Shown: positions 1,990 through 64,000 of the stretch, piece after piece | Layout: each line of letters begins with the position of its first letter | How positions within the stretch are numbered: the stretch's first letter is position 1 | Origin: Blasia pusilla | Taxonomy: Eukaryota | Assembly: GCA_050084515.1 (NCBI GenBank) | Contig: CM114271.1 | Span: forward strand, 26,660,001-26,724,000 | Reading direction: 5' to 3' | DNA length: 64,000 bases | Made by a program: the position numbers and the translations under genes | The notes under the pieces: model-generated | Told to the model about the DNA's origin: nothing | Seen by the model: the letters and a program-made list of their open reading frames with translations, nothing else | Databases searched by the model: none

Positions 1990-2930
1990 CCATATCCTCA
2001 TCACTCTCACCATACAAATAAGCTCCAACTACATCTCGCTGACTTAGACATGGGTTCTGACTCAAACCATATGCATCTTGGTTGAGCCTCCTAGGTTGGT
2101 TTACCACTTAAAAATAATACTACTACAATAATAAATGTCACATAGCAAGCTTTCCCATAAGGTTTTTTAACTCCATCAACCATTTTAATGGTTGATCATT
2201 AGTGAAGAGGGTGAAAGGATTGTCGAATAAATAGCACTTGAATGGGTGATGACCCATACGCCAACAAAGTACTCTCCCTTATATGAGATATACTTTGACT
2301 CTGCAATATTATTTGAGTGGCTAGCATAATCTACTATAAACTCTCTACCCTCACCATCATGTTGGGTGAGCATCGCTCCAAGATCCAACAAACTCCAATA
2401 AGTGTGTAGCTTATAAGGACACCCCCTAACAAGTCTCCTCAAAATAGGTGCAGACGTCAATCTATCCTCAAGCATCTGAAATTCTTTCTCTTGCCACTTA
2501 TGTTCCACCTTCATCACCAAGGTCAATGGCTTCGCAATCGTACTAAATCCCTTGACGTATTGTGAATACATGTTCGCCAATCTCATGATACACAAACTCA
2601 ACTTACATTTGTAGGACGTGGGATACATGATATAGCCTTTTACTTTGTCTGTTGTACACCAAGACCTCTAAGATATATTGTATGATCCAAGGAATCAATC
2701 TAGTCAAAAAGAACTTATACTTGTTTGGATGTAGCTTGAGCCCATGTAACTGCAATCATCATAACAAATTTGCAAAGTGTTCCTCATGCTCCCAAACTTT
2801 GGGGTTGAAGACTACAATATCATCGATGTAACATCTAGAAAAATCCAAACCAACCAAGATCCTATCCATGATCCTTTGAAATTCAATGGCACAACAATAC
2901 ATTCTCCAAAGTGTAGTTTGGAGAACGAGG
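1990..2930 (-). mobile_element. Decayed Ty3/gypsy pol fragment (RT-RNase H), copy 1
   Basis: Minus ORFs give EFQRIMDRILVGLDFSRCYIDDIVVF (RT YxDD) and FSTIAKPLT...LTSAPIL...GAMLTQ...YASHS (RT/RNase H linker). Frameshifted, with stops. Confidence 0.9.
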
Positions 2931-47007: not shown

Positions 47008-48249
47008 CTACATGCACGTCCTCGTACATAAAGCACGGGTCAGGGAATCTGTTGCGTTGACGGCGTTGGGCCAATCTTTGTACTGATTGGTTCTGGAGCA
47101 GACCAGTCGAAGGGAGCCGTGGATGGGCGAAGTTGAGACGGTGCACTGGGAGATGTCCAGTCCACTTTGACAACGCCAGAAGTTGGAGGGGATGCAGCTC
47201 ATGTAGTGGCACCACCTGCAAGTTCTACGGTTGTCGAAGCCAAATCCCTTGAACAGACTGAGAATGGCGGCCGTGTATCCCAGGAGCAAGAAGACCAACG
47301 CCAAACTCCATATCAGTACTTGTAGTCGGGTGTGCTTTACAGTTCCAACCCGCCCTCCGTTCATCGAATCCTCCGTGTGCGAATCGTGAATCATCGGGAA
47401 ACAGCACCTCTGCTTGATCCACGCAAACCTCGGCCTCACAAGGAAGATGAATCCCAGCAGAAACCCGGCGACGAAGCCGCCGACGTGAGCCAAGTTGTCG
47501 ACATGAGGCATCAGACCGAAGCTGAACGAGAGGGTCACGGCGAGAACTAGAGCTGCCAGCGAGCGGCTCCGATGCCTGTAGTTGGTCCAATTGATCAGCA
47601 TTTCTGCCACCGTCGCTCCTAAAAGTCCCATCAGAGCGCCGGAGGCGCCCACCGAAATCTGATTCTGCATGAAGAGAGCCGACAGCAAGCTTCCCCCGAA
47701 GCCCGACATGAAGTAAATGATTCCCACTCGTAACCCTCCGAAATCCCGCTCAAGCCGCATTCCCAGTGACAGGAGTCCGATCATGTTCGCAATTAGGTGA
47801 AACAGGCCGGCATGTAGCCACACACAAGCTGCGAGCCGCCATCCTTCTCCTCCGTTTGTCACTAGATTCGACTCCAGAGCCCCCATATGCAGCAGCGATC
47901 GATACGAAGGTCCCAGCAACGGATTTTCATTCAGCGGTTGGAAGGACAGGCGGCCCAGGAACTGAAGAACGCACTTGTCAGGCCGGAGCGAATTCGCGGG
48001 GCAATCGTTCTCGTACATTGTGATGATGAACACTATGGCATGGATCACGAGCAAAGTTGGGACTATCCACGGAAATCTCGGTCTGTCCACCCGGTCGAAG
48101 TACGAGATTCCACGCCCGTGGTAGTGGAGTCCGTGCGCTGCCGGATCAAAATTGTAGTACGGTGAAGGTTTCGACGAAGGACTGCTACCGAAGGATGCCT
48201 TTCTCGGCACAGTTGTGGTCATGGTACCGAAGATTTGTGAAGGGTTCAT
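47008..48249 (-). CDS. Rhomboid-like intramembrane serine protease (plant RBL1-type), single exon, 413 aa
   Basis: SFQPLNENPLLGPS, EGWRL, WLHAG..HL..NM, catalytic VGASGA and DNLAHVGG; C-terminal CRWCHYMSCIP. First ATG at 48249 (the track's 48252 is TTG). Confidence 0.95.
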   Translation of the reverse strand: MNPSQIFGTMTTTVPRKASFGSSPSSKPSPYYNFDPAAHGLHYHGRGISYFDRVDRPRFPWIVPTLLVIHAIVFIITMYENDCPANSLRPDKCVLQFLGRLSFQPLNENPLLGPSYRSLLHMGALESNLVTNGGEGWRLAACVWLHAGLFHLIANMIGLLSLGMRLERDFGGLRVGIIYFMSGFGGSLLSALFMQNQISVGASGALMGLLGATVAEMLINWTNYRHRSRSLAALVLAVTLSFSFGLMPHVDNLAHVGGFVAGFLLGFIFLVRPRFAWIKQRCCFPMIHDSHTEDSMNGGRVGTVKHTRLQVLIWSLALVFLLLGYTAAILSLFKGFGFDNRRTCRWCHYMSCIPSNFWRCQSGLDISQCTVSTSPIHGSLRLVCSRTNQYKDWPNAVNATDSLTRALCTRTCM

Positions 48250-50336
48250 CAAAGGAATTCCGGGGCTGACGAATCCAAATTTGGTTGCGGATCTAGATTC
48301 CTGTCTCGCTCGCTCCAGTCTCTCCCCACCTTCATGTCGGCCGATTCGCTGTCCTGAATCACCACGGCAGGTGATTGTGTTAATGGTGGCGGTGGCGGTA
48401 ACGCCATCTCGATCCCAGCTTTGAATTTTGATCCTTCGAGCCGGGTGGAGACACGATCTTCCGCGGAAGATACATGTGGCGAAAATGGTTCCGGGCCGTC
48501 GTTGAAACGTTCGCGTTCTCTCACCCCCTCCTCACACTCTTCGTCTGTCTAGGGATTTCAAAGTGCTTGTGTTTCGACGACGACGACAGATCGTCCCTCG
48601 CTAGAAAAGATCTGTTCGGTATTCCAGCATTCTGCAAGATGCGAATCGCAATTTGATTTGGACGGGTAAATCGTAGGAACCAATGATTTCCTCAAGCGTT
48701 TCGCCTTTCTCGATGCCGACATGTCTCCATCTTCTTTTGGAACAACTTTTAGTTTCAGCTCTCCCACTGGGATGCCGTCTCAACTTGTCTCTCTCCTAAT
48801 CGAATGGGGCGTGCTCTCTCCGATAATCGTCGCGCCTGGCAGAAGCACGTCTCTGAATTTATTGGTGTTCCGCGAGTAGGACGTATGCGCCTGCTTCGAT
48901 CGAGATGGATCTACAATCCGGTGGTAGCCAGCGTCTAGCTAGTCCGCCAGCTTGAGAGCCAAGCTATGGTCTTAAGAACCGGACTTTTAAGCAGTTACGT
49001 GAAGAGCTAACGAACAAGAGCAGTCAGCCCCTTCTCACCCACATCCGAACTCGCGTTTCGTCCACCGTCTGAAAACTGTCACTAAACTCTTTCGCACCTT
49101 TCCTTGAAGATGCCTCCCAAAGGCCGAACCGACATAACGTTCTCCTAATTTAAGCATATTCCGCTTCATGTGACGACCCATTTTCCGTGCTTAAAGCTCG
49201 TACACCATCCCCATGGACGCAAGAAGAAGCGGAAACGGGGCGCGACAATGCTTCTCGGGCCCTGGCTCTCACTCGGTGTGAAATGATTGCGGTGCTACTC
49301 ACTGCTTTATCTTGTCGCGTACATTTCACACGATTACTCGGTGCTCGTATCGGACACGTCGTTTCCAACTCCCCACGACTGCTGTAGATTAGATAAATTA
49401 ATTCCTGTTGATATTTATTTACCTTGAAAATTCTGTAATTCTATATAACTAAAAAATCCTTGTTGAGATAAAAAACTTTGAGACCTTTTTGTTCGTGGTT
49501 AAATATTAAAATAATTTTTAATCCAAATACATCGATTGAAGAAACTATTCAAAATCATTTAGGCGATGGGGAGGGATGGAAGAAAAACCCACTTGTTGCG
49601 AGAGGGACCTGACTGAGGCTCATGAGGAGTGCACCGATTCCCGTGAAAACAGGGAATGCAAATCAGTGAGCAATGGATGATTTCAATCAGAGTGCACTTG
49701 GAGAATATTGTGCGGAATGGCTACAAGCGATTTGACATAACACGAAGGAGAATAAAAGCTTTTCAATAGAAAGCCTCCTTCGTTTTTTTTGGCAGTAGAG
49801 CTCGTTACGCTTTCTGTAAATTGTGATGATTATATGCAGCATTGCATTTAATCATCGCCTAAATTGTGATGCACAACAAGTGCGGGAGCCAGTAAAACTC
49901 ACCTGCCTAGTTTACGTATACAGGGAAGTTGAGGTCTCCAAAATCCTGAACTTCACCTTTAAATGCCAGCTAGGAAGATGGTCATTTATGGCCCATGTGT
50001 GAACTTCTGTTGTGGCAGCCGAGGGCAAATTCTGGTCTACGAAACAGTGAACATGGTCGAGAGGGAGGCGGCGATCAACGTATGAGACGCAAAGTCGGAG
50101 AAGACTGCTGGATTAGGTCGTTTATACTAAGAGACAAGTACAATTCGAGGCTCGTGGGGGAGGCTATGTCCATGTCCGACCTTTCCAATTTTTATTTATC
50201 GTGAGAGGACGTTTCTCTCCACTGAAGCGGATTGCAGGAGGGAAACTGAAGCTATCTGTGGCAGTGTAGGAAAGAAATGAGGTTGTGAAAGAAGGAGGCT
50301 GATCTTCAGACTGGTGCTGCGCGAAACACTTCCGCA

Positions 50337-53300
50337 TCACGAGAAAAGAATCTCAAATTCGTTCAGTCGCAAATTTTGCTTGTCAGTGCGGATGCAACCA
50401 GCGACGTCCGTCACTCCATTCTTCCCGCTCTTGGCAGGCCTGCGTCAAAATCCGAGAAGACTGCATCACTTTAATGTTCACCGTAAATGCAGATCCGCGC
50501 CATGAAACTGGTCGCTGCAAGCTCACTTTTTGCTCAACCATTAGTATGTACAGACTTCATTAGACCAAGCCAAGACATAGAATCTTGTCATCGCTTGCAG
50601 GGTGCCTATGTAGAAAAGCGTTCTGAAACAATGAAGTCCACACTGCAGACGACTCCAAAAGGACTATGGGGGGAAAGAGTGGCTCTCACTGACTCAGTAC
50701 AACGGATGTCAGAATGGGCGACAAAGCAGGACACCTAGGCTATACAAACGAGGAATCTGCTCTCTGCTGCAGCATCTGTGTCTCTGATCGACGCAAATTG
50801 GGCGGCTGTTGACAGAATCAACTAGAAGCCACCATGGAAACTGTCTGTCCAATTAACAGTCAATCATCGGCATCCACTTCGCGCCGACTCTATGTTTTGA
50901 CAAACAGACAGAGACTTTTAACATAAAGCAGTGTCTGTGATAGCGTTGCTACCATCGCGTAGAACCCGCTCACAAACAAACAGGGGAAGATTGAGAACGA
51001 ACGAGTTCGTCAATGTCTGAATGAGGCCGACCATCAGACCTCAAATAATGAAATGAACGACGGAATCATTTTCCACGGTGACCCGTGTGAGACTTCAGAG
51101 AAGATAGGACTACCTAGGTATATCAGATCATCATGAAAGGCCAGTGACAGCAAAAGAAAGCGGCCTTATTCGAAGAAGCTAACCGTTATTGAAACATGTT
51201 CGATTCTACCAGCTACTCGAACCTGGTTCCTTCTGATGATTACATGCATTGCATATAATCATCGCGCTGACAATACGTTATGACTACGGATGACTCAATG
51301 TAATATGTATAAGGTAAGAAAGCATCAGTCAGAGGAAGAGGAAAAATACGAGAAATACCTGGGTGCTGAATCTGAATCCGGAGAGTCTGAAGTATTTATT
51401 GGGGCAGAACGACTGCGGAGGAGTTTCAGTATATTCGCTTCTACGGAGTTTTCAACATAGAGCCTGTAGCACTAAACAAACTTGCATTACATCTCTCAGA
51501 AATCTACAAGCAAATCACAACCTCTGAAGGTGTCTCAAAAATCTAGAACCAATTCACAACAGCACATGACGGTTGACGTAGTACAACAATATATCGCGGA
51601 CATCGAGTAAGAAATCTACCGTAATGAAAAAGAAGATGAAAGTCATCGTGCTTCAGGTGAGCTCACAACAGAGCTGAAAAAGTTTTTTGTAACTGGGTCT
51701 CAACAATCCTTCTTAGATTGTTGTGTCAACTTGTAAGACGCCAAGAAATGACTAGCAGTGATGCCCCAAATGAAAACTAACGCTCTCGACTCTTGATTCT
51801 TACTACTACAAAGCGCGATGATACATGGAACAATTCTGTTTTGAATAGACATCGAAGCAGGAGTTAGCAGTTCAGAGACCATGAGAAATGACAGGCATCA
51901 CCATGAAGTGCATTCTGCGGTGCTAAACCTCCCATGCTGCATGAAGTCATCCTTTTACAGCCATATTCTCTAACCTTACACCGCCGGTGCTAACAGAGAG
52001 GGCATGCGTGTTAGCTCTTGATTTCGAATGCAACTCTAGCAATATCGTGCCAGTCCCTTTCGAATGATTGAAGTGTTATCCACTTTACTATTTGTGCAGG
52101 TCAGGTTCCTCGCTTTCCCATCGTTACCTTAGACAGAATTTCGTAGAGGTCCAAGTTTGAGAAAGCGTCTGGCGAGCAACTACCCGCGATCATGTCTTAT
52201 GATACTGGATGTAGGGACGTTTGAGTATGCGAGACAAGGAGCTGGAGTCTCTGCATCCTTCCTTCTGGGTTTGTGTACTTTGCTGACTACCTGGACAGAG
52301 GTCGACTCGGTTAAGTTTCCAGTGTAAACTCTTAGTCTATTTGCTTTGAAGGGTTTCAATGAATCACTCACGTGCAGCATCTGCACCTGAAATGGTTCAC
52401 GAGTTTCAGCTAATGAGAAGTTCTGATCGGTTAATTTGACGCACTAGCAATACCTGCAGATGCTAGGTAGTTACATGGAGTATCCAGGGCAACTTGGAGG
52501 GGTAATACAGGAGAGATTCCATGTGGGTATGGAGTTTTGCCTTCTCCCTGTATCGATAGTGTCTGCATGAGGTGAATCGTTTGTGTCTCTTCGGATTCGT
52601 GGGGTTCAGGACGGCGACTTTCAATGGACTTACCTTCATTGGGTTTCATTTATTAGTTCCCCAAACTTGTATATAAGCCCTATCACTATTGATGTTCTTA
52701 CAACAACCATAGATCAGTCATGCACCATAATATTATCTTTCGACACCTACAGCACTTACTGGACATCCCGTTTCTTGCCAAACAGACAAAGGAAAGTAAT
52801 AACCGGTGCAAGTACGCGACATGGCCAGCCTTTCATACCAAGAGGGGACCCAATAATTCTGCGATTGGTGCTCGTCTGTTACAGTAGTACTCAGAGACGA
52901 TGAAAAATTACCTTTTGATCACGACAGGTCTCTCCTGACCCATTCTCCAGCATCGACCAACCGCTTGCTCCTCAAGCTGTCCATTGAAACAAGAGTTAAA
53001 AAAAACCAACCGGTCAGAGAATTCCACAGAACATTTATTTAAAATTTTTTTTTCTGCCCCGCAGTTTTGTTTTCTCTCCTCTTCCACTCGTGTGTAATAA
53101 TTAATTTCTTCCCCTCCTCTCAAAGGACCGCAAACTGGATGATATAGAACTCTGTAAGCACTTCACAACTAGTGTATATCTCTCAATATATTCAATTTGA
53201 CCTCTAGGCATCTTTATTCTTGCTTGGAAGACGCTCAGTGTTCAAAAGCAGGTAGTTGACGGTTCGTATAAGAGAAGCAATAGACGTACTGCGGGATTGA

Positions 53301-56300
53301 GGCATGGCTCCAGCTGATTAAGATACGTCGAGACACCACACGTAAGAGAAATGTCAGACGTCCGGAGCCACATCCAATAAGCAAGAAGAGGATGAAAGAA
53401 TAAATTAACAACTTATTCTCCATGGAGAGTCTAAGGCCAAAAGGGCGAGATTCTTGCTTTCACTAAAATATCGATTCATTAAACAAGCAGAGATTGCAAT
53501 ATCATGGCTCCTTTCTAACACTGAATTCGACATTTAGCTGTCAAGTCATAAAGACCTCTCAATATGACTTTAACTCTCCATATGATCAAGTCGTCTGTGG
53601 GTGGGTGTGCTGATGAAAGATACCGAAGTAGATCTAGTGAGTACAACCAAATCATACCATGTACACATGAGAGGCAGCTGTCAAAGTTATCCCTACAGCT
53701 CCAGTCCGTATAGATAACAAAAATACTGTTGTAGGTGGATCCTGCATCAACATACCACGAAGTTACCTCAAATCCTGTACTGTTGCATGAAGCTGTAATA
53801 ACTAATGGGATGGTTGCAGATGATTAGCAGTGAGGTAAAGAAGTCTGGAGGTGAATCCAGTCGGACATCGAAGTCTCGTTGAACTCGAAATAACACCTAA
53901 TGAGAACTTAGGTGACATCTCGTTGGCACATTCAAAGGGCTTGTAAGTTTTGAAACGGCTGCGCAGGTCTTCCTCAACGAGAGCTCTTGTACAGAAAACA
54001 ACCTTCTGGAAAGCCTCAATGGCCTGAGCTCGTTTCTTCATTGGCATGTCTCCACTGATAAATCTGTATGTAATATTCTGCTTTTTGAACTCTGTCTTGA
54101 GCCACGCAATGGTTTGCATAAACTGACTGAATATGAGCACCTGCCAAAACATTAGGTGACCACCCTTAACTTGGCATCCTTAGTTACACAATCAGAGAAG
54201 ATGTTCTTCGATACACCAAAATACAGCAAGCTTGAGACATCTTCTTGTCATAATCACGAATAGATCCTCTGATCAGGTTCATCGAATTTCTTGAATACCT
54301 CAGCTGAATGTATTCGAGAAGTATAGAGGTTTGGGACAACTCAGACTACTGATAAGGACGAGCTTCATTCCACTAGTGCTCACCTTTGCGCCTGGATTTT
54401 CCTCCCTAACTTCATCTAGGTCTGCAAGCAAGGTTTTCAATTTGGAGTTCATCTGTACTCCTTTGGTGCCGGCAGCATCGTCTTCAGATACAGTTCCTGT
54501 CGACATTGAAGTAGGATCGAAAAGAGATGCCATCATCATCCCCTTCAGTTTCGACTGAAAGGTCATTAGCTCGCTAACTGTGACAGAACTTCTACAAACG
54601 GGACACAACCCCTCTGATCCTAATCCGATAGTCGACATTACGCACTCACAGCAGAACCTGCACAAAAGAGAGCATGTTAGGATTACTATGCTGTATGATA
54701 GCAAACCCATTCAAACTGCCATAATTTACCCCGTAGCATTACCGGTTATATCGACCTTGAAACTCCATGTATGAGCTTATGACTAATCTACTACTGACTC
54801 ATTTGAGGTTTTGGCACTCCCATATGTTCATGGTTGGTTTGGTTGTGTTTACTTGGTACATTATCATGCATGAGATTTGCATCACAGCATCTCGTCATTC
54901 ACTCGGGTACTAGAGAGTGCTTGGTCTCAAAGTCAGGGATAGAGCGTGAAACCAGAATTTACCAGTGGCCGCATGGTGTTTTCGTAGGACATTCCATCAG
55001 ATCAAAGCATATTCCACACTCTCCTTCCATGTCATCCAATCCGTCTGGATCGGTCGTTGATATTAAATTACTGCTGCTGTGACTGTTTTCTGCACCACCG
55101 TTAGGGCTCTGTTCTCTTTTGCTCATATTTAAATCAAAGTTTGAGACAAACCCGCCACTGCAAAGCCTGACAGATATTGAAAAGATAAGTCATGCAGTTT
55201 TTGACTGCTTTCCTGGGTTCTTTCCATCTTGTTTATCTGTTTGGTTTTGAATTCTCAAGACCTGTTACAGTATCTGGGAATAGGAAGCAAACACTTATCC
55301 GAGCACCATGTATGGCGGTTTGGATTCTCTATGAGTGAACTAGTTATTTCTCAGTTTTCTCCACTAAGATTCCATCCACGTATTTGAATGATATGAAAGA
55401 ATTTCGGAAACGGTAAAGTCTTACTCACTGTGAAGGCACATCAAGCCAATGTAAGGTGAACACCAGAATACTTAACAAAGGCAAGACATTTAATCTTCTC
55501 GTTTCCGTGATGGAAATCGGACCATTGTTCATTACTAAGTGCAAGCCAGATTAGATAACGTCCACAAATGGAGCATACCTCCGGAGAGGTAGTAGAAGTG
55601 ACATAATTTGGAGGATATTCTTGCTCACGACAGTCGGGCCCCAGCAACGGAATTGCTCAAACTTTGATATGACTTTCTGGTAGACGGCTGCGTAAGCACT
55701 GCGTTCTTCACTGGTGAAGAACACTGGTATATCTTGCTCAGTTTTAGGGGGAAGACTGAGGAGCTCTCCTCCATTGAACTTTTGCTGCTTTGTGTGTCGT
55801 ATCATCATCTGATATGGTGCCCACTAATCACTGGTCATCCACCATACCAGTTGTCTAGATGCAGCGTGCACCATGAGAATGGCGCTATTTTCTGGCAGTT
55901 ACGACTATCGAACTTCTCAAAGATAGATTATTTTCTGTCTGAGCTGCCTGTATTCCGTTTCTTTCAGAGAGTATTCAATCTATGACGGCCGTTTCATAGT
56001 TTGTAGGTTCCGGTTTCCTGACGACGTCTTCAAGCTATCTTTTCTATACCAATATTTTCATGATTATATTGTGTCGTCTTACTTTAGATTTCTGTTGCTG
56101 TGGTGTCTGACATTTCAAATTTATTGTCAGAACAAATCTCAGAACGTGCCTTTACTCAGGAGTACGTCTTGTGGTCGGTCTTACCTTATTCAGGGTCCAA
56201 AGGAGCACTGTTTGATCATCACTCTTACACTGCCGTTCATAAGGTCGGCCTATTCTCCTCCGAAAGATGCTCTTGTTATCCAATGGCTCCAGCTTTAGAA

Positions 56301-59300
56301 ATAGGAACTGCGCCGTAAAGAACGCAGAAAATGTAGGGACTATCACTTTCTCAGTCACTGAAATTGAACTGTTTGATCAATAGGTGATTTGGGATCAAAC
56401 AAGCATGCGATACTAGCTAGAGCAGTCATTGGAGAGCCCCATCAGAACGAAAAAATTTGATGTGAATTGCAAAGTTTTTGATGCACAGAAACGGGCTCTG
56501 GTGGAAGTAACTAGTTTTGATTCCAACAGAAGTGATTTTAAGGAAGCTTTAAAAAATACGCAAGCTGGACTTAGTGCGAAACCGGATACTCACGAGAATG
56601 TCACTGACATACCTGACCGTAGAGATCATAAATATTGTTGTTGATTGGCGTTCCTGTGCAGCACCACCGCCTCTCAGCTTTCAACTTGGCACATGCTCGG
56701 GAATGAAGAGGTGCTGGATCTTTGACCTGTTTACACAGAAATCATGGCAGTTCTCAGTTTTGCGTATCAGTTATCATTACTTCTTAGGTTAGCATCTTCA
56801 CCTTTGAGAACGGTGACTAAAGCTTTACTGAGATTGGCATGGACTTCGTTCCGGGTTTATTACTTGGCTAAATGCCACAAACGGAATTGGAAATTCATGG
56901 ATCATATTTGAGGTTAATAGGCAAGCGCTCAAGGTACTCGATGAAAGTTGTGTACACTGAGTAATGCCGGCAGCTCATGTTGTGATTTGATTCATCGAGA
57001 TGCAGACAAGGCGCCCATAATAGGACGACCGTTTCCGAAGAAATTCCAGACATGTCAAGTTCCTAATAGCAGAGATTGAAACCTCAAAGTGAAGATGGTA
57101 CAGAGGTTTGACGCCAGGGGAGGCTCTTAACAGTATGCGATTCGTCTAGCACCACTCGCCACCACTTCACTGTAAGCAGTGGGCAAAATTGTTCTGCGAA
57201 TCCAGAGCCATGTCTAGTTGCTTGAGTCGCTTTGCTGAAATCACTTCCAAGAGTAGCATACGTTGTGATAACCTACAATCAAAGTTTGTTACGATTGAGA
57301 CGCTGCTGATAAGTAGCACTTTCGTGCAACAATAATTTCGCAAGAAGATTCAAAAAGTTTCGGAAAGTAAAACTGGAATGCCTACTTACTATGTCATACT
57401 TCGCAAGCTTCTTCGGATCCCGGATCCTGCGAGGTGAAAACGAGTGACTCTTTTAGGCGCATGTAATATGTAGGACTTTTCACAAAAGAACTTGTAATAT
57501 GCACGGCTTATCATGAAAGAAATTTCTCTGCTGATCACAATTTCGATGGCCGTCTAAACTGGAAAATCACCTCTTTGAACCGTGATACATGTATATAGTC
57601 AGATTTGCTGCTAGCTTGGTCTTCACCTCGTTCGCCCACTGCCCAACAATCGAAACTGGGCACACAACTGACAACCCACATTCTAGAAATGAACTCCAGT
57701 ACTACACAAAGTCATTCCTAATCTGGCCAGTAATTGTTTGTCAATCTCCCTTAAAAGATAACCCACCCGCCAACTCGACACTAGCTTTCACAAACTTAGA
57801 CTTGTATGCTTCTCATTGAGGTAGTCCAGTTATAGATTTGTATACGGGTACGGTTCTTGGCACGTTGAAACTTGAATCGGTGAAGCAAACTTTGAATCTT
57901 CCATCTTGTATAGAGGTTTTTTCCGATTTTTCCTTTTAAGTGCCTACCAAGAGTGCCTTTCGAGGACCCAGGGGGACATTTCTCAAGTGTGCAAGGGTTC
58001 GCAAGAATGAGCGCCAATATCTGCAACAATAGAACTTGGGTCACTGAGACAAGTCATGAATGCAAATTGCAAGAACCAATTACAAAATACGAGGAAAAAA
58101 TCGAAGTCTAAGCTTTCAAGACGCTGCCAGATGTTGCAGTGGACGAAACCAACTGAAACTGACCTCAATGGTCTTCCCAAGTCCCATCTCCTCACAAAGA
58201 AATCCTCCTCGAACAGTACCACTCTCTTTAGTTTCGATCAAGTGTCCCAGAGTGGATGAGTACATTAAAGAATGACCAGACGGAGTGGTGGGGAGCCGAT
58301 GATAATTCAAACTAAGTAAACCGCCTTCTCTATGTTCTGCATCCAGCATGAATTGTAGAGACTGTTTCTGGTAAGGTCGCAAAGGAACTGACAGTCCAGA
58401 CGGTTGGGGTGCTTCACTGTAGCAATTGCTCTCTAAATCTCTTAACAATCCGGGAACTGATGTCCAATCGTCACAGCTTTCAGCCCACTTCCGCATTTCA
58501 TCCACTTCTAACAAGTAGCTCTGCAAAGCAGTGTCTTCGGGAAAGACTTCTCTTAGAAGTTCTTTCAGGAAGAACAGCTCATCGCCTCTAGTCTTTTTCA
58601 GGAAAACTCGAATGTGAGCGCTTCCGACCTTTCTATCTTCTGCTTTAGGAGTTATGTTCATAATCACTTGTAGCTGCCCTTGTGCTTCATTAGCCCTGCG
58701 CCAGAGAGAGGAATAACGCTTTAATTTGCATCAGATTCTCGAAACTGAATATCTTTCTGACAACATACGTCCTCGCTAAAGAGGACACCGCGAATGAAAT
58801 GCGATCGCACGTACGACCTCAATCCGAACGCAAACTTACATGAGTTCGCCGAGCAGAGCTTGATGTCTGACTAATGCGCTCCCCTCCTCAACAAGCTCTA
58901 CGTGCTCCGCTTCAGACGCCTTGCCTTCACCCACTGCAATGTGTAGTACATTTGATCACGCATGTGATTGAGACAAGTCACGTACAGCTTATCTGGGAAA
59001 TCGCTAGTCAGTCGTCCATGATGCAAAACTGGACTGACGAGTTTGAGTTTAACGTACGATTTATGTAACATTGATGCTGAAGTTTTCCTCAAGAAGATCG
59101 ATAAAACAATGCTCTCCTAGTGCTTTCTGATTCTTGGTTTTTTTCTTGCTATCACAACATAAAAGTGTCGTTGGCTTCAACTTATGAAGCCTTAGAGTGA
59201 CGCATTGAATCTTCACCTCACCCCAGACGCTTCCTCCTACGTTTATCAATTGTAATGAAGAAAGAAAATGTTAAAGCGGTCTGCCTTACAAATCTGGGAG

Positions 59301-59405
59301 AATATGTCGAGAGAGAATTTGTCAAAAGTTTCAATTAGATCATCCAATGTTCTCTCGGACTGCCGCAACCTCACCGGAATATGCGCAGCTCCAAACTCAA
59401 ACCAC
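50337..59405 (-). CDS. RAD5/HLTF-type SNF2 helicase with RING finger, multi-exon, intact frame
   Basis: Exons (-): 59405-59290, 58933-58840, 58695-58164, 58020-57948, 57667-57571, 57426-57390, 57272-57132, 56726-56613, 56307-56185, 55808-55579, 55166-54963, 54657-54384, 54140-54003, 53741-53658, 53313-53290, 52976-52912, 51463-51359, 50439-50337. All GT-AG and phase-consistent. Motifs LRPYQ, GGFLCEEMGLGKT, VVCPVS, RVVLDESH, CTGTP, RING CGIC..CGHWFCCEC..CPVC, LIFSQF, GAVGITLT, QAVGRCWRMGQ; ends LRLNEFEILFS*. The two 5'-most exons are less certain. Confidence 0.92.
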
Positions 59406-60672
59406 CTGTCATGAAACAGGATACGCAATAGAGTGGTGGTGGGTCACTGTCAGCCTGAATCAAATTGGAAAAAATGCTAAGCATTGCAGTTTCTTAGCAA
59501 ATCCAAGCATTGAATTGGACTATGGTTGCTTCGAGCAAAATCACGTCCGCCAACAAGGGCATCCACACTTTCAGAGTCTGCATCGCTGCATCGTACTTCA
59601 GGCCAATTACGTTGAAGTGGCTCAAAAGAGAAACACCACACATGACTGTTTTTCCAGGTGGTTCCCGTAATATTTGTTCATGATATGTGTCCCTTGGATT
59701 GATTGACTTCAGACACGTTTGCTGTTTCGTAGGCACAGCAGGACTCTGTCCATAATCCCAAGAATTTCAGAAATACGGTAGCTGTCTCACCCATTGTGGC
59801 ATATTAGACCTTTGGCACTGTAATTTTAGGCTGGTGAATCGCCAGCATCTTCTCTCGAGTGCATGACATTAAATTTTGAGGAAGCTCCAAGGTCTAGGGT
59901 CCTATCATCCTCTTTCACACTTATTGCAACGAAAGATTTAGTTGTGGTCTGCGTATTCTGCTTGGCTAGAGGGCACAAGGTAGAGCGAAACGAAAAACTC
60001 TTGAAATCGTACTACTCCTTTTCATTCTCTACGGGGAAACTGAGGACCCGCGAGTGACATGATGCCTGAATGATGGCCACACGGACATTCCCCACTGAGC
60101 TCCAACACATCATCCGTCCAAGTTCTCTAGTCCGGGCAGAGGGCAAATACATCGGGCCCAATTTCAGGACTGGACGATGCCGTTGTCAGTCACCGGGTCT
60201 TGGCAGCAAGGAAACAAACAAAAGTAGTTGTCGATGTCCAAACTACTGTTGTGGAGTGTGAAGTGTATATGATCGAAAGGAGGAAACTACACTAATCGCC
60301 TTGTTTCTCTTTCAGTGTCTCTCGTATATATTCGGGACCAGTCTCTGAGAATATTCGAATCTGCACACGTTTAGGGATCGATCGGATGAAAAGGTCACCT
60401 GTGACGCTGTCAGGTGAATTGGTGGTTTGACTATTCATAAGGTGATCGGAGGAAAGAAGTCCGGTAAGGCGAGTTTCAATTGCAATAAGTGCGCTTCGAT
60501 TTTCGCCACTATGCTGAAAGTTTTGAATAAATACATGGAGTTTCAGATCTCCAGGTAGGTAACCTTCGTGTTTGATCTAGATATAGTTCCCCTCAATTAT
60601 CAGAGTACAACTTCACTCACGCGCAGTGGCTAGTCTAAAACAAGACGGGAAATGGTGAGTAAAGAACCTTAC

Positions 60673-61889
60673 TGGGGATCTCCGGAGGGATCTGTGCGTG
60701 GTCTGTTGGCGACCAAGATGATGGATGATGACGGGCTGCAAGAAGGGTAGCACTCTGTATCGGGAGACTCGCCGTGTAGTAGCTTGTTGTCTCCCAGGTT
60801 TTCAAGAGTGCTACTGAGGGTAAGAGGGGATATGGAGGGCCCATAGAGGCCATTTGAAAAACCACTCATCGAGCTTGGGCGCTCTGGAAAAGCCATCAGA
60901 CCTTGATTGTCTGCTTCCCCTTGGCTCCCGCCTCCCAGTATCTTCCCTTTGGCCCAGAACCAGCTCGTGGCAGTCGCATTGCAATGATCAGAGCTGTTGA
61001 GTCCTCTACCCCACAGAGCACAAGGTGCCAATTCTTCGCAAGAATAGCACCAGCACTGTTGCACCTCACACGGACATGAACAAGTGTCAGAAAGCTGTTA
61101 TCACATTGACAAAGTAATAAAAGGATTCGGATCTTTATTTTGACATGGATTAACTTTCACAGCAGCTTAGTAAGAAGCCGTCCGGGTTGTTTCAACATTT
61201 TTGACGATTTAATTTCGAAAGGAACTGACGAGGCACGAGTTGATGGTAATATAATTCGTCTCCCTACGAGCCAAGTCTAAGGACGCCACACATGGATTTA
61301 GATACAGTATGTAGTGCAACAGTTATGGTATCTTCACGTACGAGTGCTTTCAGCTATTCTAAGACAGACGGATTTACGATGGCAACAAAAGCACATTGGG
61401 ATCGGATTTGAGTTATCTTGGACGAGAGATCATTGTGTGTACATCCACCTTGTTGCAATGGGCACTGTTGGATAGGCACGGCGGTGGAATGAAGGGGAAA
61501 ACGACACACATATGGCGAGGGTGCGGGGAGTCCCGTGAGAGGTGATTGTCATCGATATCACAGGTCCCAATGCCATCAGATGGACTGTTGGAAAAGGTGC
61601 TGGCGCGACATTGCCCGTCTCGACTGCCAATTGAATCGTCGAATGTACAAGATAGCATAAGCTTCTGTCGCTTCTGCTGCGCGTACTCCTCGGTGTTATC
61701 ATCTCCTCCGTCATAAAGCAGATCAGACTGAGATGGTTTTTTCCATAGATAGAGCATGTCCTCCTCTACTCGCTTCTGGTGACCCTCCGCAGCCTGGGAA
61801 TTCACCTTCAAATGCAGGTCCGAGCTCGACTGCAAAAGATATTGTTCTCCGTTGGTGCACGGCCTGAAATTTGATTTATCCGTTTTCAT
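60673..61889 (-). CDS. Two exons encoding a RIN13-like Cys/His-rich module; either the N-terminus of the helicase or a separate small gene
   Basis: Exons 61889-61449 and 61055-60673 join as RDSPHPRHMCVVFPF...HCNK|CWCYSCEELAPCALWGRG....DHCNAT....W, matching my recollection of the RIN13 pattern RDYPHxRHxCxxFPF...CxxCxCYVCDxxAPCxxW...HCxA. Confidence 0.75.
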
Positions 61890-63639
61890 TGAGCTGGACT
61901 TAACGTAGTCTTTTCCGCGTGAAGGGTGGCAGCAACTGTCTATGACTAGATTAATTGGTGCAGAGAATTACTACAAACCAGGAACACTCGGCATCGAGAT
62001 TTTGGTTTCACAGCAGACGATGGATATCAACGCATCAACCGTTATTTGATGGATATCTCGTTCTGGAGAGGAGCGATCCGCAATTCCGTCCTCTGTGCTG
62101 TACTTCTGTTGTCCCCTACTGCGTAAGACTCGGATTCCGTCACGGTGCCCAGCAGATCGGAGGAGCGTGGCTTCCGAATCGAAGCTCTACTAGTTGCTTC
62201 CATGCTGACCTTTAAGGACCGCGCATGCAATCGCCAGAAATCACGTCCACCGGAGTCGGAAACTCAAGACTCAGTTCTCGATGTGAATTGTGAGCGGTGC
62301 ACTCATACCGACTTCTGATTCAATGAAACAAAAGAAGTCCTGAAGATCAGCGCGAACTCGCATCAATTTTCGCCGGCTACCGCTCGTGCTCAGAACGAAA
62401 TGCCGCGACGACAATCGACGCGCTACTCGAGCTCGCGGGACGACGCATGCATGTCCACAAACTCCAAAACGCACGAAGCACGGCAGGAGCGCATGAAATA
62501 TATCATTATCTATCCGCAAACACGTACGTTGTCCCGCCCCGAGCTTCACCGCGCACGGGCAGGGCGAGCTCGTCGACCGTCGACGGCCGATCAGCCGGGA
62601 AGACAGTAGTGTTGCACGTGGATCCCCGACCGAAGAGACGCTGCAGTGGCTCGACTGTCGCTGCAGCCGGAATCCCAATCGCCTCATGGCAAAGAATTCC
62701 TCGTGAACGAGCAAACGGCCATGGGAGTTCTTGCTCTGGAATCTTGGGCCTGTTCAAGCCAAGACAGCGGGGCCGTTAGCAGCGAGGGAGGGCATCGCCA
62801 CAGCTCCGCAGGTCGCGATTGCCAGCATCTCCAGACCTCCCTCCTCCTCCTCAATCAAAGAAAGAACAATCTCCTGGCCGTTCGGCATACATCTTCCTCC
62901 TCCTCATCGCCGTTCTTCTCCAATCACCCCATTTCCGCTACTCTCGACACCTTCACAAATTCCACGGCGAGCCTGGCAGGCCAGTTCACGACTCCAGCTA
63001 AAACGGAACGCGCGATTGATTCGGACCTACACATACCACACACACATGACTGTTTTCATTTCATTCTACGACATTCGGGACGAATCGCGCCTCGCGAGCG
63101 AACGAACGGACGACCTTCACGTCTGGTGAGCGGGGGGTCTGTGTGCGGACGGGAAGACTCGGGAGAACCGTTGACGGAAGCTGCGGCAATGATGCCGCGG
63201 TGATTAGCCGTCCTTTCCGTCCGTCGTCGGCGCCAGCCATGATGATGGCGGTGAAGCCACGGACGCCGGCAGAACGACCGGAGCCAATGTTCGGAGCCGT
63301 TTCGTTTCGAAATAGTCGGCCAAAACCTGCCCGGAAGGGAGCCATTTCTGAAAACCGGCGTACCGTTCCCGGCCGTAAAATACCGGGAACTAACCGGTTC
63401 CCGTGGAAAAACTCCCCGGGATCCTGATCGGAGCTCCAAACTCGGGGCTCGGCTCGTGCCGTTGCTGCTCGTACGTAACGCCGTCATTGCGCTTCGCACC
63501 ACTTATCGTTTCGTAATCATTTCCCGCTACTGGCAATCACTGCGATTCCCAAACCATCATTGATCCCCCCCCGCCTTCACAAAGCACCCCCTTTCTCGTC
63601 GTCACCGTCACGCCTTCACAGTGCGCGTACGTGTCCCTA

Positions 63640-63669
63640 GTTCCGTTCCGTTCCGTTCCGTTCGGTTCG
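63640..63669. repeat. (GTTCC)n pentanucleotide microsatellite
   Basis: GTTCC x4 followed by GTTCG x2. Confidence 0.9.
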
Positions 63670-64000
63670 AGGTACCCATCCCCCGGTGGATATAAATTTT
63701 AATAGAAATTTGGATGGAAAACCCATCGGATGCAAAGGTGGGGGAATGTAGAGAAAACAATTCGCGGGTCAAAACCGGCCCTCGAGAGATAGAAGGGGGT
63801 TTCTCTCCTAACAACCAATATCTCTAGTGACACCTAGAGAATTATGGTAATTATTTAGTGGGCTTCTAGCATTGGCGTCTCCAATCGCCAGAGCCGACCG
63901 CTAAAGCCCATTTGCTTGGACACGATACAAAGTTATGGAGATCCGTTGCCTACAATAAAGAATCGCAGTGGGTAAGGATCACCCATTTCTCGACTGTAGA

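What the first reader, a model, noticed from the sequence alone, without database searches (positions are those of the whole stretch)
50337..61889. Candidate RIN13-like Cys/His module fused to a RAD5/HLTF-type SNF2-RING helicase
Seen: exons 61889-61449 and 61055-60673 encode RDSPHPRHMCVVFPF...HCNKCWCYSCEELAPCALW...DHCNAT. The donor CA|GTAAGG at 60673 (phase 2) fits the acceptor GACAG|G at 59405, and all later exons stay in phase: 20 exons, 3378 nt, 1125 aa, no internal stop. I found no convincing separate start for the helicase and no recognisable HIRAN domain. Established: RAD5/HLTF proteins are fork-remodelling ubiquitin ligases that usually carry an N-terminal HIRAN domain; Arabidopsis RIN13 is a stand-alone nuclear protein that interacts with the NLR RPM1 and whose domain function is unclear. 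Inference: a Rosetta-stone fusion suggesting the RIN13 module is a metal-binding DNA/chromatin-targeting domain, linking an immunity-associated protein family to DNA repair. I cannot tell whether this architecture is already described.
Basis: partly seen in the sequence, partly recalled or inferred. Interest (0 to 1): 0.8.

Follow-up and report, generated by a model that had tools for sequence, protein, structure and literature searches.

The report
RIN13-type zinc module on SNF2-RING helicase
This liverwort gene encodes a DNA-repair-type SNF2-RING helicase that carries at its front end the small zinc-binding module otherwise known from the plant immunity protein RIN13; the fusion looks real, is old and is widespread in algae and early land plants, and is already present in public annotation.

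Summary
It is 82% identical to Marchantia polymorpha 'MpRAD5' (P0001, 1123 aa).

The N-terminal Cys/His module is homologous to RIN13. A profile of it hits proteins named 'RPM1 interacting protein 13' at E 5e-18 and 8e-42. Pfam 38.1 already has it as PF27679 'RIN13_N'.

The rest is an SNF2 ATPase with a RING inserted before Helicase_C. Its best solved relative is yeast Rad5, and Pfam finds no HIRAN.

The fusion is not a local oddity. Of the 120 closest helicase relatives, 49 (precomputed Pfam) or 52 (my HMM) carry the module, always at the N-terminus. They come from bryophytes, a lycophyte, Klebsormidium, green algae, brown algae and transcriptome-derived protist ORFs.

Close orthologues were not seen in angiosperms, where the module stands alone as RIN13-like proteins.

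Eight invariant Cys/His residues imply two zinc sites. No solved fold matched. A chromatin- or DNA-targeting role is inference only. No RNA evidence could be obtained for this species.

The parts
61449..61889 (-). Exon 1 (ATG at 61889; 441 nt, ends phase 0). Encodes a low-conservation N-terminus and the first half of the RIN13_N module (H123, R125, C128, C145).
61449..61535 (-). RIN13_N zinc module, first half (R119..K147)
   Evidence: Alignments A1/A2; residue check
60673..61055 (-). Exon 2 (383 nt, ends phase 2; donor CCCA|gtaagg). Holds the second half of the module plus a Ser/Pro-rich linker with land-plant-conserved motifs.
60942..61055 (-). RIN13_N zinc module, second half (C148, C150, C153, C159, W162, H171 and the following aromatic/basic stretch). 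The end is approximate.
59406..60672 (-). Intron 2 (1267 nt), the junction in question. If it were retained, an in-frame TAA follows at 60671-60669.
   Evidence: no Rfam family in it
59290..59405 (-). Exon 3 (116 nt); start of the conserved pre-helicase region (WFEFG...)
58840..58933 (-). Exon 4 (94 nt)
58164..58695 (-). Exon 5 (532 nt): the rest of the pre-helicase region and the start of the SNF2 domain, up to motif I (GKT)
57948..58020 (-). Exon 6 (73 nt), SNF2 domain
57571..57667 (-). Exon 7 (97 nt), SNF2 domain
57390..57426 (-). Exon 8 (37 nt), SNF2 domain
57132..57272 (-). Exon 9 (141 nt), SNF2 domain with the DESH box
56613..56726 (-). Exon 10 (114 nt), SNF2 domain
56185..56307 (-). Exon 11 (123 nt), SNF2 domain
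55579..55808 (-). Exon 12 (230 nt), end of the SNF2-related domain
54963..55166 (-). Exon 13 (204 nt): linker and the first half of the RING finger (about 55021-54963)
54384..54657 (-). Exon 14 (274 nt): second half of the RING (about 54657-54591), a linker, and the start of Helicase_C
54003..54140 (-). Exon 15 (138 nt), Helicase_C
53658..53741 (-). Exon 16 (84 nt), Helicase_C
53290..53313 (-). Exon 17 (24 nt micro-exon), Helicase_C
52912..52976 (-). Exon 18 (65 nt), end of Helicase_C
51359..51463 (-). Exon 19 (105 nt), C-terminal tail
50337..50439 (-). Exon 20 (103 nt, including the TGA stop at 50339-50337); conserved C-terminal motif

Best explanation
The locus is one gene: the orthologue, in a liverwort close to Marchantia, of the protein that NCBI lists as MpRAD5. 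Its product is a 1125-aa nuclear-type enzyme of the Rad5/16-like group of SNF2 ATPases. It has a DNA-translocase motor with a RING E3 ubiquitin-ligase finger inserted between the SNF2 and Helicase_C lobes.

In place of the HIRAN domain of RAD5/HLTF, it carries at the N-terminus a module of about 70 residues, Pfam RIN13_N. This is the same module that sits near the N-terminus of the stand-alone angiosperm RIN13-like proteins.

Shown here:
- the gene model;
- the homology of the module;
- the domain order;
- the wide, ancient distribution of this same architecture.

Inferred:
- The eight invariant Cys/His residues (H, C, C, C, C, C, C, H) bind two zinc ions and build a compact finger.
- That finger, with its invariant Arg and Trp and a following aromatic/basic helix, is the targeting or substrate-recognition part. 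It would bring the motor and the RING to a nuclear substrate (a DNA structure, chromatin or a modified protein), as HIRAN does for RAD5/HLTF.
- I put about 0.35 on DNA/chromatin targeting specifically. The confidence below is for the identity and architecture claim.
For: Gene model: 20 GT-AG exons, 3378 nt, 1125 aa, no stop, 82.1% identical to P0001 over the full length.

Orthologues with the same N-terminal module and the same junction sequence (...RPRxDPSxDxQ followed by WFEFG...) occur in Marchantia, Calypogeia, Riccia, Sphagnum, Ceratodon, Physcomitrium and Diphasiastrum.

Domains: SNF2-rel_dom 450-793, RING 841-882 and Helicase_C 940-1046 on P0001. The window's own exons hit the same families. 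The best solved relative is K. lactis Rad5, 6l8n, E 1.3e-50 over 540-1072.

Module homology:
- A profile of 9 module sequences finds 1414 proteins at E<=1e-3 and 383 at E<=1e-10 among 1.84 billion.
- The 150 listed are mostly 400-650 aa, with the module at about residues 100-200.
- Of 20 whose names I looked up, 2 are named RPM1 interacting protein 13 (Nyssa P0094, Striga P0035). Nine more are unnamed or 'uncharacterized' angiosperm proteins of the same type.
- BLASTP of P0001 against P0094 gives 48% identity over 67 aa, E 8e-18.
- The Atlas names the family PF27679 RIN13_N, feature score 0.92.

Ligands: invariant in 34 of 34 aligned modules are H8, R10, C13, C30, C33, C35, C38, C44, W47 and H56. 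All ten are present in the window's product.

AlphaFold2 on that alignment gives mean pLDDT 85.9, and at least 94 for residues 11-60.

Spread of the fusion:
- PF27679.1 is precomputed on 15 of 28 and on 49 of 120 (hand count) of the closest SNF2-RING relatives.
- My own HMM finds the module in 52 of 120, always starting within the first 170 residues.
- These include three transcriptome-derived MMETSP ORFs (P0207, P0239, P0240), so one mRNA encodes both parts in other lineages.
Against: No transcript evidence for this species. No RNA holder was listed, and three RNA-seq runs under the same species label laid 2 reads in all. Splicing of intron 2 therefore rests on comparison with gene predictions in other plants.

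If intron 2 were retained, an in-frame TAA follows at once, so a short RIN13-like isoform of 274 aa is possible.

The local Pfam copy lacks PF27679. The spliced product itself could not be scored against the curated model, and I rely on the orthologue's precomputed hit and on my own profiles.

Zinc binding, DNA or chromatin binding and E3 or translocase activity are untested.

The module model matched no solved structure, so its fold gives no functional hint.

Within the land-plant clade, 4 of 11 rows (Selaginella, two ferns, Ginkgo) lack a recognisable module, so the helicase can evidently do without it.

Known RIN13 partners from the literature are proteins (RPM1, PAD4, ARF1; passages in PMC6640183, PMC8831314, PMC10706244). 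This fits a protein-binding role at least as well as a DNA-binding one.
Confidence: 0.85

Rival explanations
1. There are two genes. A stand-alone RIN13-like gene (exons 1-2) ends at the TAA at 60671-60669. A separate helicase gene has its own promoter inside the 1.27-kb 'intron 2'.
For: An in-frame TAA lies directly after the proposed donor. Intron 2 is the second longest of 19 (1267 nt). No RNA data could be obtained. Stand-alone RIN13_N proteins are common elsewhere.
Against: Exon 3 has no in-frame ATG. Its frame is closed by a stop 13 codons upstream, and the first Met after the junction is M345. A separate start there would discard 70 residues that are conserved from liverworts to Ginkgo.

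The junction peptide is colinear with full-length orthologues in at least 8 bryophyte and lycophyte species. In a Sphagnum read-through fragment, the residues after the donor are not a stop (P0029).

The same N-terminal module plus helicase lies in single transcriptome-derived ORFs of other lineages. Introns of 1448 and 919 nt occur elsewhere in the gene.
Confidence: 0.05
2. The gene model is the same, but the RIN13_N module is a protein-protein interaction finger rather than a nucleic-acid or chromatin reader. It could bind ubiquitin, SUMO, PCNA or an E2, or regulate the motor or RING within the same protein.
For: RIN13 is reported to act through protein partners: RPM1, PAD4 and ARF1 (passages in PMC6640183, PMC8831314 and the reference list of PMC10706244). 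Many small binuclear Cys/His fingers on E3 ligases are protein binders (general knowledge, not tested here). The module shows no sequence or fold similarity to any solved DNA-binding finger.
Against: It is not known which part of RIN13 makes those contacts; the original papers were not held. The module takes the position of HIRAN, a DNA-end binder, in the nearest characterised enzymes. A conserved aromatic/basic helix follows the last ligand.
Confidence: 0.3
3. It is simply the plant RAD5 (post-replication repair, PCNA polyubiquitination, fork reversal), with a lineage-specific N-terminal decoration of little consequence.
For: NCBI names the orthologue MpRAD5 and UniRef names the Sphagnum one 'DNA repair protein RAD5'. 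The best solved relative is Rad5. Four of 11 land-plant orthologues lack the module.
Against: No HIRAN was found by Pfam in 4 of 4 orthologues tested. The one HIRAN-annotated relative among the 120 (P0254) falls on the other side of the tree, with fungal and amoebozoan proteins (the deep branch is weak, support 64).

The module is under strong constraint: ten residues are invariant from brown algae to liverworts. No angiosperm protein is closer than about 32% identity, although angiosperms have RAD5A/B with HIRAN (PMC10893944, passage read).
Confidence: 0.15

Closest known systems
Marchantia polymorpha MpRAD5 (P0001, 1123 aa) and its bryophyte and lycophyte orthologues
   Same: Same gene. It is 82% identical over the full length, with the same exon-junction peptides and the same order RIN13_N - conserved pre-helicase region - SNF2 - RING - Helicase_C.
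   Different: Only species-level differences, for example a shorter Gly run and small indels in the poorly conserved first 110 residues.
Arabidopsis RIN13 and angiosperm RIN13-like proteins (Pfam PF27679 RIN13_N)
   Same: The Cys/His module of about 70 residues, with all eight ligand positions plus R and W. It is 48% identical to Nyssa RIN13 over 67 aa.
   Different: RIN13-like proteins are 400-650 aa with no helicase and no RING. Outside the module there is no credible similarity. In angiosperms the motifs read CHCYVCD and DHCHA, against CWCYSCE and DHCNA here.
Yeast Rad5 / human HLTF / Arabidopsis RAD5A,B
   Same: An SNF2 motor with a RING inserted before Helicase_C. Rad5 is the best solved relative, E 1.3e-50.
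   Different: Those carry an N-terminal HIRAN domain that binds DNA 3' ends (established knowledge; HIRAN/SNF2_N/RING/HELICASE_C is stated for RAD5B in PMC10893944). Pfam finds none here, and RIN13_N stands in that place. Orthology is not shown.
RIN13_N-SNF2-RING proteins of Klebsormidium, chlorophytes, brown algae and marine protists (e.g. P0190, P0013, P0198, P0245, P0207)
   Same: The same architecture with the module at the N-terminus. The helicase part is 35-50% identical.
   Different: They are usually much longer (1300-1900 aa) with long low-complexity inserts. Some have a shorter loop before the last His, and many chlorophytes have DHANA instead of DHCNA.

Membership tests
Pfam PF27679 RIN13_N | Significant sequence similarity to the N-terminal domain of proteins named RPM1 interacting protein 13 | tested here: met
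   Profile A1 hits Nyssa P0094 (E 4.7e-18) and Striga P0035 (E 7.7e-42); names come. BLASTP of P0001 against P0094 gives E 8e-18. The Atlas feature hit to RIN13_N clusters scores 0.92.
Pfam PF27679 RIN13_N | Score above the curated gathering threshold of the PF27679 model | not testable with these tools
   The local Pfam copy does not hold PF27679: no hit, although the orthologue carries a precomputed PF27679.1. The spliced window product could not be sent to remote tools.
Pfam PF27679 RIN13_N | Conserved Cys/His pattern H-x4-C-x(n)-C-x2-C-x-C-x2-C-x5,6-C-x2-W-x(n)-H (my derivation from 34 sequences, not Pfam's text) | tested here: met
   All ten invariant residues of alignment A2 are present in the window's model: H123, R125, C128, C145, C148, C150, C153, C159, W162, H171.
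Pfam PF27679 RIN13_N | Zinc binding | not testable with these tools
   Inferred from eight invariant ligand-type residues only.
Rad5/16-like group of SNF2 ATPases | SNF2-related domain and Helicase_C with a RING finger inserted between them | tested here: met
   P0001: SNF2 450-793 (E 2.7e-57), RING 841-882, Helicase_C 940-1046. The window's exons hit the same families in the same order.
RAD5/HLTF proper | N-terminal HIRAN domain | tested here: not met
   No PF08797 hit at E<=0.01 in 4 of 4 orthologues or in the window's exon translations at E<=0.1. At fold level the test is inconclusive: the exon-5 product was modelled at pLDDT 69.7 and no match exceeded Z 3.1. Exons 3-4 were not modelled.
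RAD5/HLTF proper | Orthology to RAD5/HLTF in a phylogeny with the other Rad5/16-like subfamilies | tested here: inconclusive
   The tree of 106 relatives holds no bona fide RAD5A, HLTF, RAD16 or SHPRH. The only HIRAN-annotated row lies outside the module-bearing side, but that branch has support 64.
RAD5/HLTF proper | PCNA polyubiquitination and fork-reversal activity | not testable with these tools
   Biochemical.

The most novel reading that the evidence does not exclude
RIN13_N is a previously uncharacterised binuclear zinc-finger fold. It is the ancestral substrate-recognition head of a distinct, ancient subfamily of Rad5/16-like SNF2-RING enzymes found in green algae, brown algae, other protists and bryophytes, functionally replacing HIRAN. 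Seed plants let the module on the helicase decay (Ginkgo, ferns, Selaginella), and angiosperms lost the helicase. The module survived on its own as RIN13 and was drawn into NLR (RPM1) and EDS1/PAD4 immunity. RIN13 would then act on chromatin or DNA, or with a paralogous SNF2-RING enzyme.
Probability: 0.25. Interest if true: 0.6.

Novelty: new member of a known kind. Interest (0 to 1): 0.4.

Why it matters
RIN13 has been a protein 'of unknown domain function' in plant immunity since 2005. Its only conserved module is, across algae and bryophytes, the N-terminal head of an SNF2 motor/RING ligase. That gives a concrete, testable lead for what the module does: nuclear targeting of a DNA- or chromatin-directed enzyme. 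It also offers a tractable system, since Marchantia appears to have a single gene.

The finding also flags that 'MpRAD5' and its relatives are probably not plain RAD5 orthologues. They lack HIRAN and form their own group.

Against that, the gene and its domain make-up are already in public databases. The present window adds only another orthologue.

Tried and rejected
RNA evidence: the look-up of sequencing runs listed no RNA holder. Three RNA-seq runs with the same species label laid 2 reads and no joints, so this gives no test of the junction.

Whole genome: none is held for this window, so I could not look for paralogues or a stand-alone RIN13 in the same genome.

Local Pfam on the two module exons and on four orthologues gave no hit for the module. 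This is because the local copy predates PF27679.

A word-based search for short proteins with the P0001 100-290 region returned 6 proteins, all broken or read-through gene models of the same moss and liverwort gene, and no RIN13. The exhaustive profile search was needed to reach RIN13.

PDB sequence search with the module profile: 0 hits at E<=10.

Fold searches with the module model: Foldseek found 0 matches at E<=10, and VIA-align wide found 0 chains of 48,161 at Z>=2.

Fold of the exon-5 product: pLDDT 69.7; best Foldseek E 0.12; best VIA Z 3.1. Nothing is usable, and HIRAN is neither found nor excluded at fold level.

Similarity of RIN13-like proteins to the liverwort protein beyond the module: the HMM alignments that run on to profile position about 150 are low-complexity and low-confidence, so I rejected them as homology.

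Looking for stand-alone RIN13 in bryophytes: the 20 names looked up were angiosperms, green algae or unnamed metagenome proteins. This is inconclusive.

Fusions of the module to MIF4G (Dioscorea P0047), RRM (P0090) and Dof (P0174) are single gene predictions and may be merged models. I did not pursue them.

Rfam: no family in 49500-64000.

Papers:
- 'RIN13' is in 27 papers, none with it in the title or abstract.
- 'RIN13_N' and 'PF27679' are in 0 papers.
- 'RIN13' together with 'SNF2' is in 0 papers.
- 'RIN13' together with 'zinc finger' is in 4 papers, none about the domain by listing.
- The original RIN13 paper (PMC1069715) is not held.

Full report
**What is there**

The window is eukaryotic DNA with short GT-AG introns. 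On the minus strand between 61889 and 50337, stop-to-stop frames carry pieces that Pfam recognises as an SNF2-related domain, a RING finger and Helicase_C, in that order.

A word-based search with the largest exon returned 28 proteins at E<=1e-3 among 1110 candidates. The top hit was 'protein MpRAD5 [Marchantia polymorpha subsp. ruderalis]' (P0001, 1123 aa, 89% identical over the exon). Next came Calypogeia, Riccia, Ginkgo, Diphasiastrum, Ceratodon, Adiantum, Physcomitrium, Ceratopteris, Sphagnum and Selaginella. The window is therefore from a liverwort fairly close to Marchantia.

**The gene model**

tblastn of P0001 against the window covers residues 1-1123 in colinear pieces. A script that picked GT/AG pairs keeping the frame open and best matching P0001 gave 20 exons, 3378 nt, 1125 aa and no internal stop. 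All introns are GT..AG, and identity to P0001 is 82.1%.

**Is it one gene?**

I could not get transcript evidence. No RNA holder was listed, and three RNA-seq runs with the same species label laid only 2 reads. The case rests on comparison.

- The peptide across the exon 2/3 junction is colinear with full-length orthologues in liverworts, mosses and a lycophyte.
- Exon 3 has no in-frame ATG, and its frame is closed 13 codons upstream.
- The first Met after the junction is M345. A separate start there would remove 70 residues conserved from liverworts to Ginkgo.
- Intron 1 splits the zinc module itself between K147 and C148, so exons 1 and 2 must be joined to make the module.
- In other lineages the same two parts lie in single ORFs from transcriptome assemblies (P0207, P0239, P0240).
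- Introns of 1448 and 919 nt elsewhere in the gene show that 1267 nt is not out of range.

Retention of intron 2 would give a 274-aa stand-alone RIN13-like product, because TAA follows the donor in frame. That isoform cannot be excluded.

**The module is RIN13-like**

The local Pfam copy found nothing on the module. The precomputed annotations, however, carried an accession absent from that copy, PF27679.1. It was on P0001, on its bryophyte orthologues, and on long SNF2 proteins of Chlorella and of metagenomes (15 of 28 rows). The ESM Atlas names it 'RIN13_N', and its nearest clusters are 'RPM1 interacting protein 13 N-terminal domain-containing protein' (score 0.92).

I tested this independently. 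A profile of nine module sequences (A1) was run against 1.84 billion representatives. It found 1414 proteins at E<=1e-3, 383 at E<=1e-10 and 4 at E<=1e-30. The 150 listed are mostly 400-650 aa with the module near residues 100-200.

I looked up names for 20 of them:
- Two are named RPM1 interacting protein 13: Nyssa P0094, E 4.7e-18, and Striga P0035, which has two modules, E 7.7e-42.
- Nine are unnamed or 'uncharacterized' angiosperm proteins of the same type.
- One is a Dioscorea MIF4G fusion.
- Five are green-algal proteins.
- Three are metagenome proteins with no informative name.

BLASTP of P0001 against Nyssa RIN13 gives 48% identity over 67 residues, E 8e-18, and nothing else of note. 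HMM alignments that extend past the module are low-complexity. Homology is therefore real but confined to about 65-75 residues.

**Anatomy of the module**

In 34 diverse modules (A2) ten positions are invariant: H8, R10, C13, C30, C33, C35, C38, C44, W47 and H56. All ten are present in the window's product: H123, R125, C128, C145, C148, C150, C153, C159, W162 and H171.

Eight ligand-type residues fit two tetrahedral zinc sites. This is an inference. The Cys after the last His, and the His residues in 'RH' and 'HC', vary and are probably not ligands.

AlphaFold2 on A2 gives mean pLDDT 85.9 and pTM 0.72, with residues 11-60 at 94 or more. It predicts little regular secondary structure before a C-terminal helix.

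No solved protein matches:
- by sequence profile, 0 hits at E<=10;
- by Foldseek, 0 matches at E<=10;
- by VIA-align against 48,161 chains, 0 at Z>=2.

For so small a metal-held domain this is weak evidence of a new fold. It also means that structure gives no functional hint.

**The helicase part**

On P0001, SNF2-rel_dom covers 450-793 (E 2.7e-57), the RING covers 841-882 and Helicase_C covers 940-1046. This is the RING-in-motor layout of the Rad5/16-like group (grouping recalled). The best solved relative is K. lactis Rad5 (6l8n, E 1.3e-50 over 540-1072).

Pfam finds no HIRAN in 4 of 4 orthologues. A fold-level look at the conserved pre-helicase region was only partial. The window's exon-5 product, folded with 19 relatives, reached pLDDT 69.7, with a long beta-hairpin followed by helices. 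It matched nothing better than Foldseek E 0.12 or Z 3.1. This is inconclusive.

**Distribution**

A search with the helicase part of P0001 returned 381 proteins at E<=1e-30 among 7009 candidates, of which 120 were listed.

- Orthologues at 72-87% identity over the full region occur in liverworts, mosses, Diphasiastrum, Selaginella, two ferns and Ginkgo. The partial Riccia model P0003 is 92% identical over the 40% it covers.
- Klebsormidium is at 50% identity.
- Many chlorophytes are at 37-47%.
- Brown algae, MMETSP transcriptomes and metagenome proteins are at 31-46%.
- The nearest angiosperm rows are CHR28-like proteins at 32% identity.

PF27679.1 is precomputed on 49 of the 120 (my hand count). 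My own HMM from A2 finds the module in 52 of 120, always starting within the first 170 residues.

I built a FastTree tree of 106 of these. Fourteen rows covering less than 80% of the helicase region were dropped: P0003, P0013, P0016, P0228, P0258, P0259, P0272, P0274, P0276, P0279, P0280, P0282, P0284 and P0285. The results were:

- 48 of the 49 module-bearing rows fall on an 89-row side. That branch is weak (support 64) and the root is arbitrary.
- Land plants form an 11-row clade (support 100), and with Klebsormidium a 13-row clade (support 100).
- The single HIRAN-annotated row (P0254) groups with fungal and amoebozoan proteins on the other side.
- The label needs at least 24 changes, against 35 in shuffles (0 of 500 shuffles as low). 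It is clustered but patchy, probably through truncated models as well as real losses.
- Within land plants, 4 of 11 rows (Selaginella, Ceratopteris, Adiantum, Ginkgo) lack a recognisable module. In Ginkgo the region is present but has lost its cysteines.

The apparent absence of close orthologues from angiosperms is suggestive only. Just 120 of 381 rows were listed, and candidates were chosen by shared words.

**How it most likely works**

Shown: one polypeptide combines a conserved Cys/His module, a conserved pre-helicase region, an SNF2 motor and a RING.

Inferred from the families: the motor translocates on double-stranded DNA, and the RING recruits an E2. The N-terminal module then decides where the enzyme acts, as accessory domains do in related enzymes (HIRAN in RAD5/HLTF).

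Two things favour a nucleic-acid or chromatin target: the invariant Arg and Trp, and the aromatic/basic helix that follows the last ligand. On the other hand, the literature's RIN13 partners are proteins. Passages read report that RIN13 enhances RPM1 resistance (PMC6640183), drives PAD4 into the nucleus (PMC8831314), and is nuclear and interacts with ARF1 (the title cited in PMC10706244). That favours a protein-binding finger. I put about 0.35 on DNA/chromatin targeting and 0.3 on protein binding. The rest is undecided.

**Novelty**

The gene and its domain make-up are already in public records. The family RIN13_N exists in Pfam 38.1 and is annotated on these helicases.

In the searchable literature I found no paper that holds 'RIN13_N' or 'PF27679', or 'RIN13' together with 'SNF2'. 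The functional implication therefore seems not to be in print there. Subscription papers and the original RIN13 papers were not searchable.

I rate this a new member of a known kind. It is a useful lead for RIN13 biology and a caution about the name 'RAD5', but not a discovery of a new architecture.

Noticed in passing
window 47011-48531 (-): A 507-codon open frame with a Rhomboid domain (PF01694, E 7.6e-36). This is a neighbouring rhomboid protease-like gene about 1.8 kb downstream of the helicase gene's 3' end.
   Followed up: partly
window 2188-2667 (-): An open frame with RT_RNaseH_2/RT_RNaseH hits (E 2e-12), a fragment of an LTR-retrotransposon polyprotein.
   Followed up: no
window 60669-60673 (-): The phase-2 donor CA|GTAAG puts TAA in frame right after exon 2. 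Intron-2 retention would therefore yield a 274-aa stand-alone RIN13-like protein from the same gene.
   Followed up: no
P0004 (Ginkgo), P0008/P0010 (ferns), P0012 (Selaginella): Orthologues with a 73-75% identical helicase part lack a recognisable RIN13_N. In Ginkgo the stretch is still alignable, but the cysteines are gone. This suggests decay of the module in vascular plants before the apparent loss of the gene in angiosperms.
   Followed up: partly
P0035 (Striga), P0036 (Chlamydomonas), P0037, P0047 (Dioscorea): Some stand-alone proteins carry two RIN13_N modules. Single gene models fuse the module to MIF4G (P0047), RRM (P0090) or Dof (P0174) domains, and these may be merged predictions.
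   Followed up: no
window 63640-63670 (-): A short (GGAAC)n-like tandem run (cggaacggaacggaacggaac) lies in the GC-rich region upstream of the gene.
   Followed up: no
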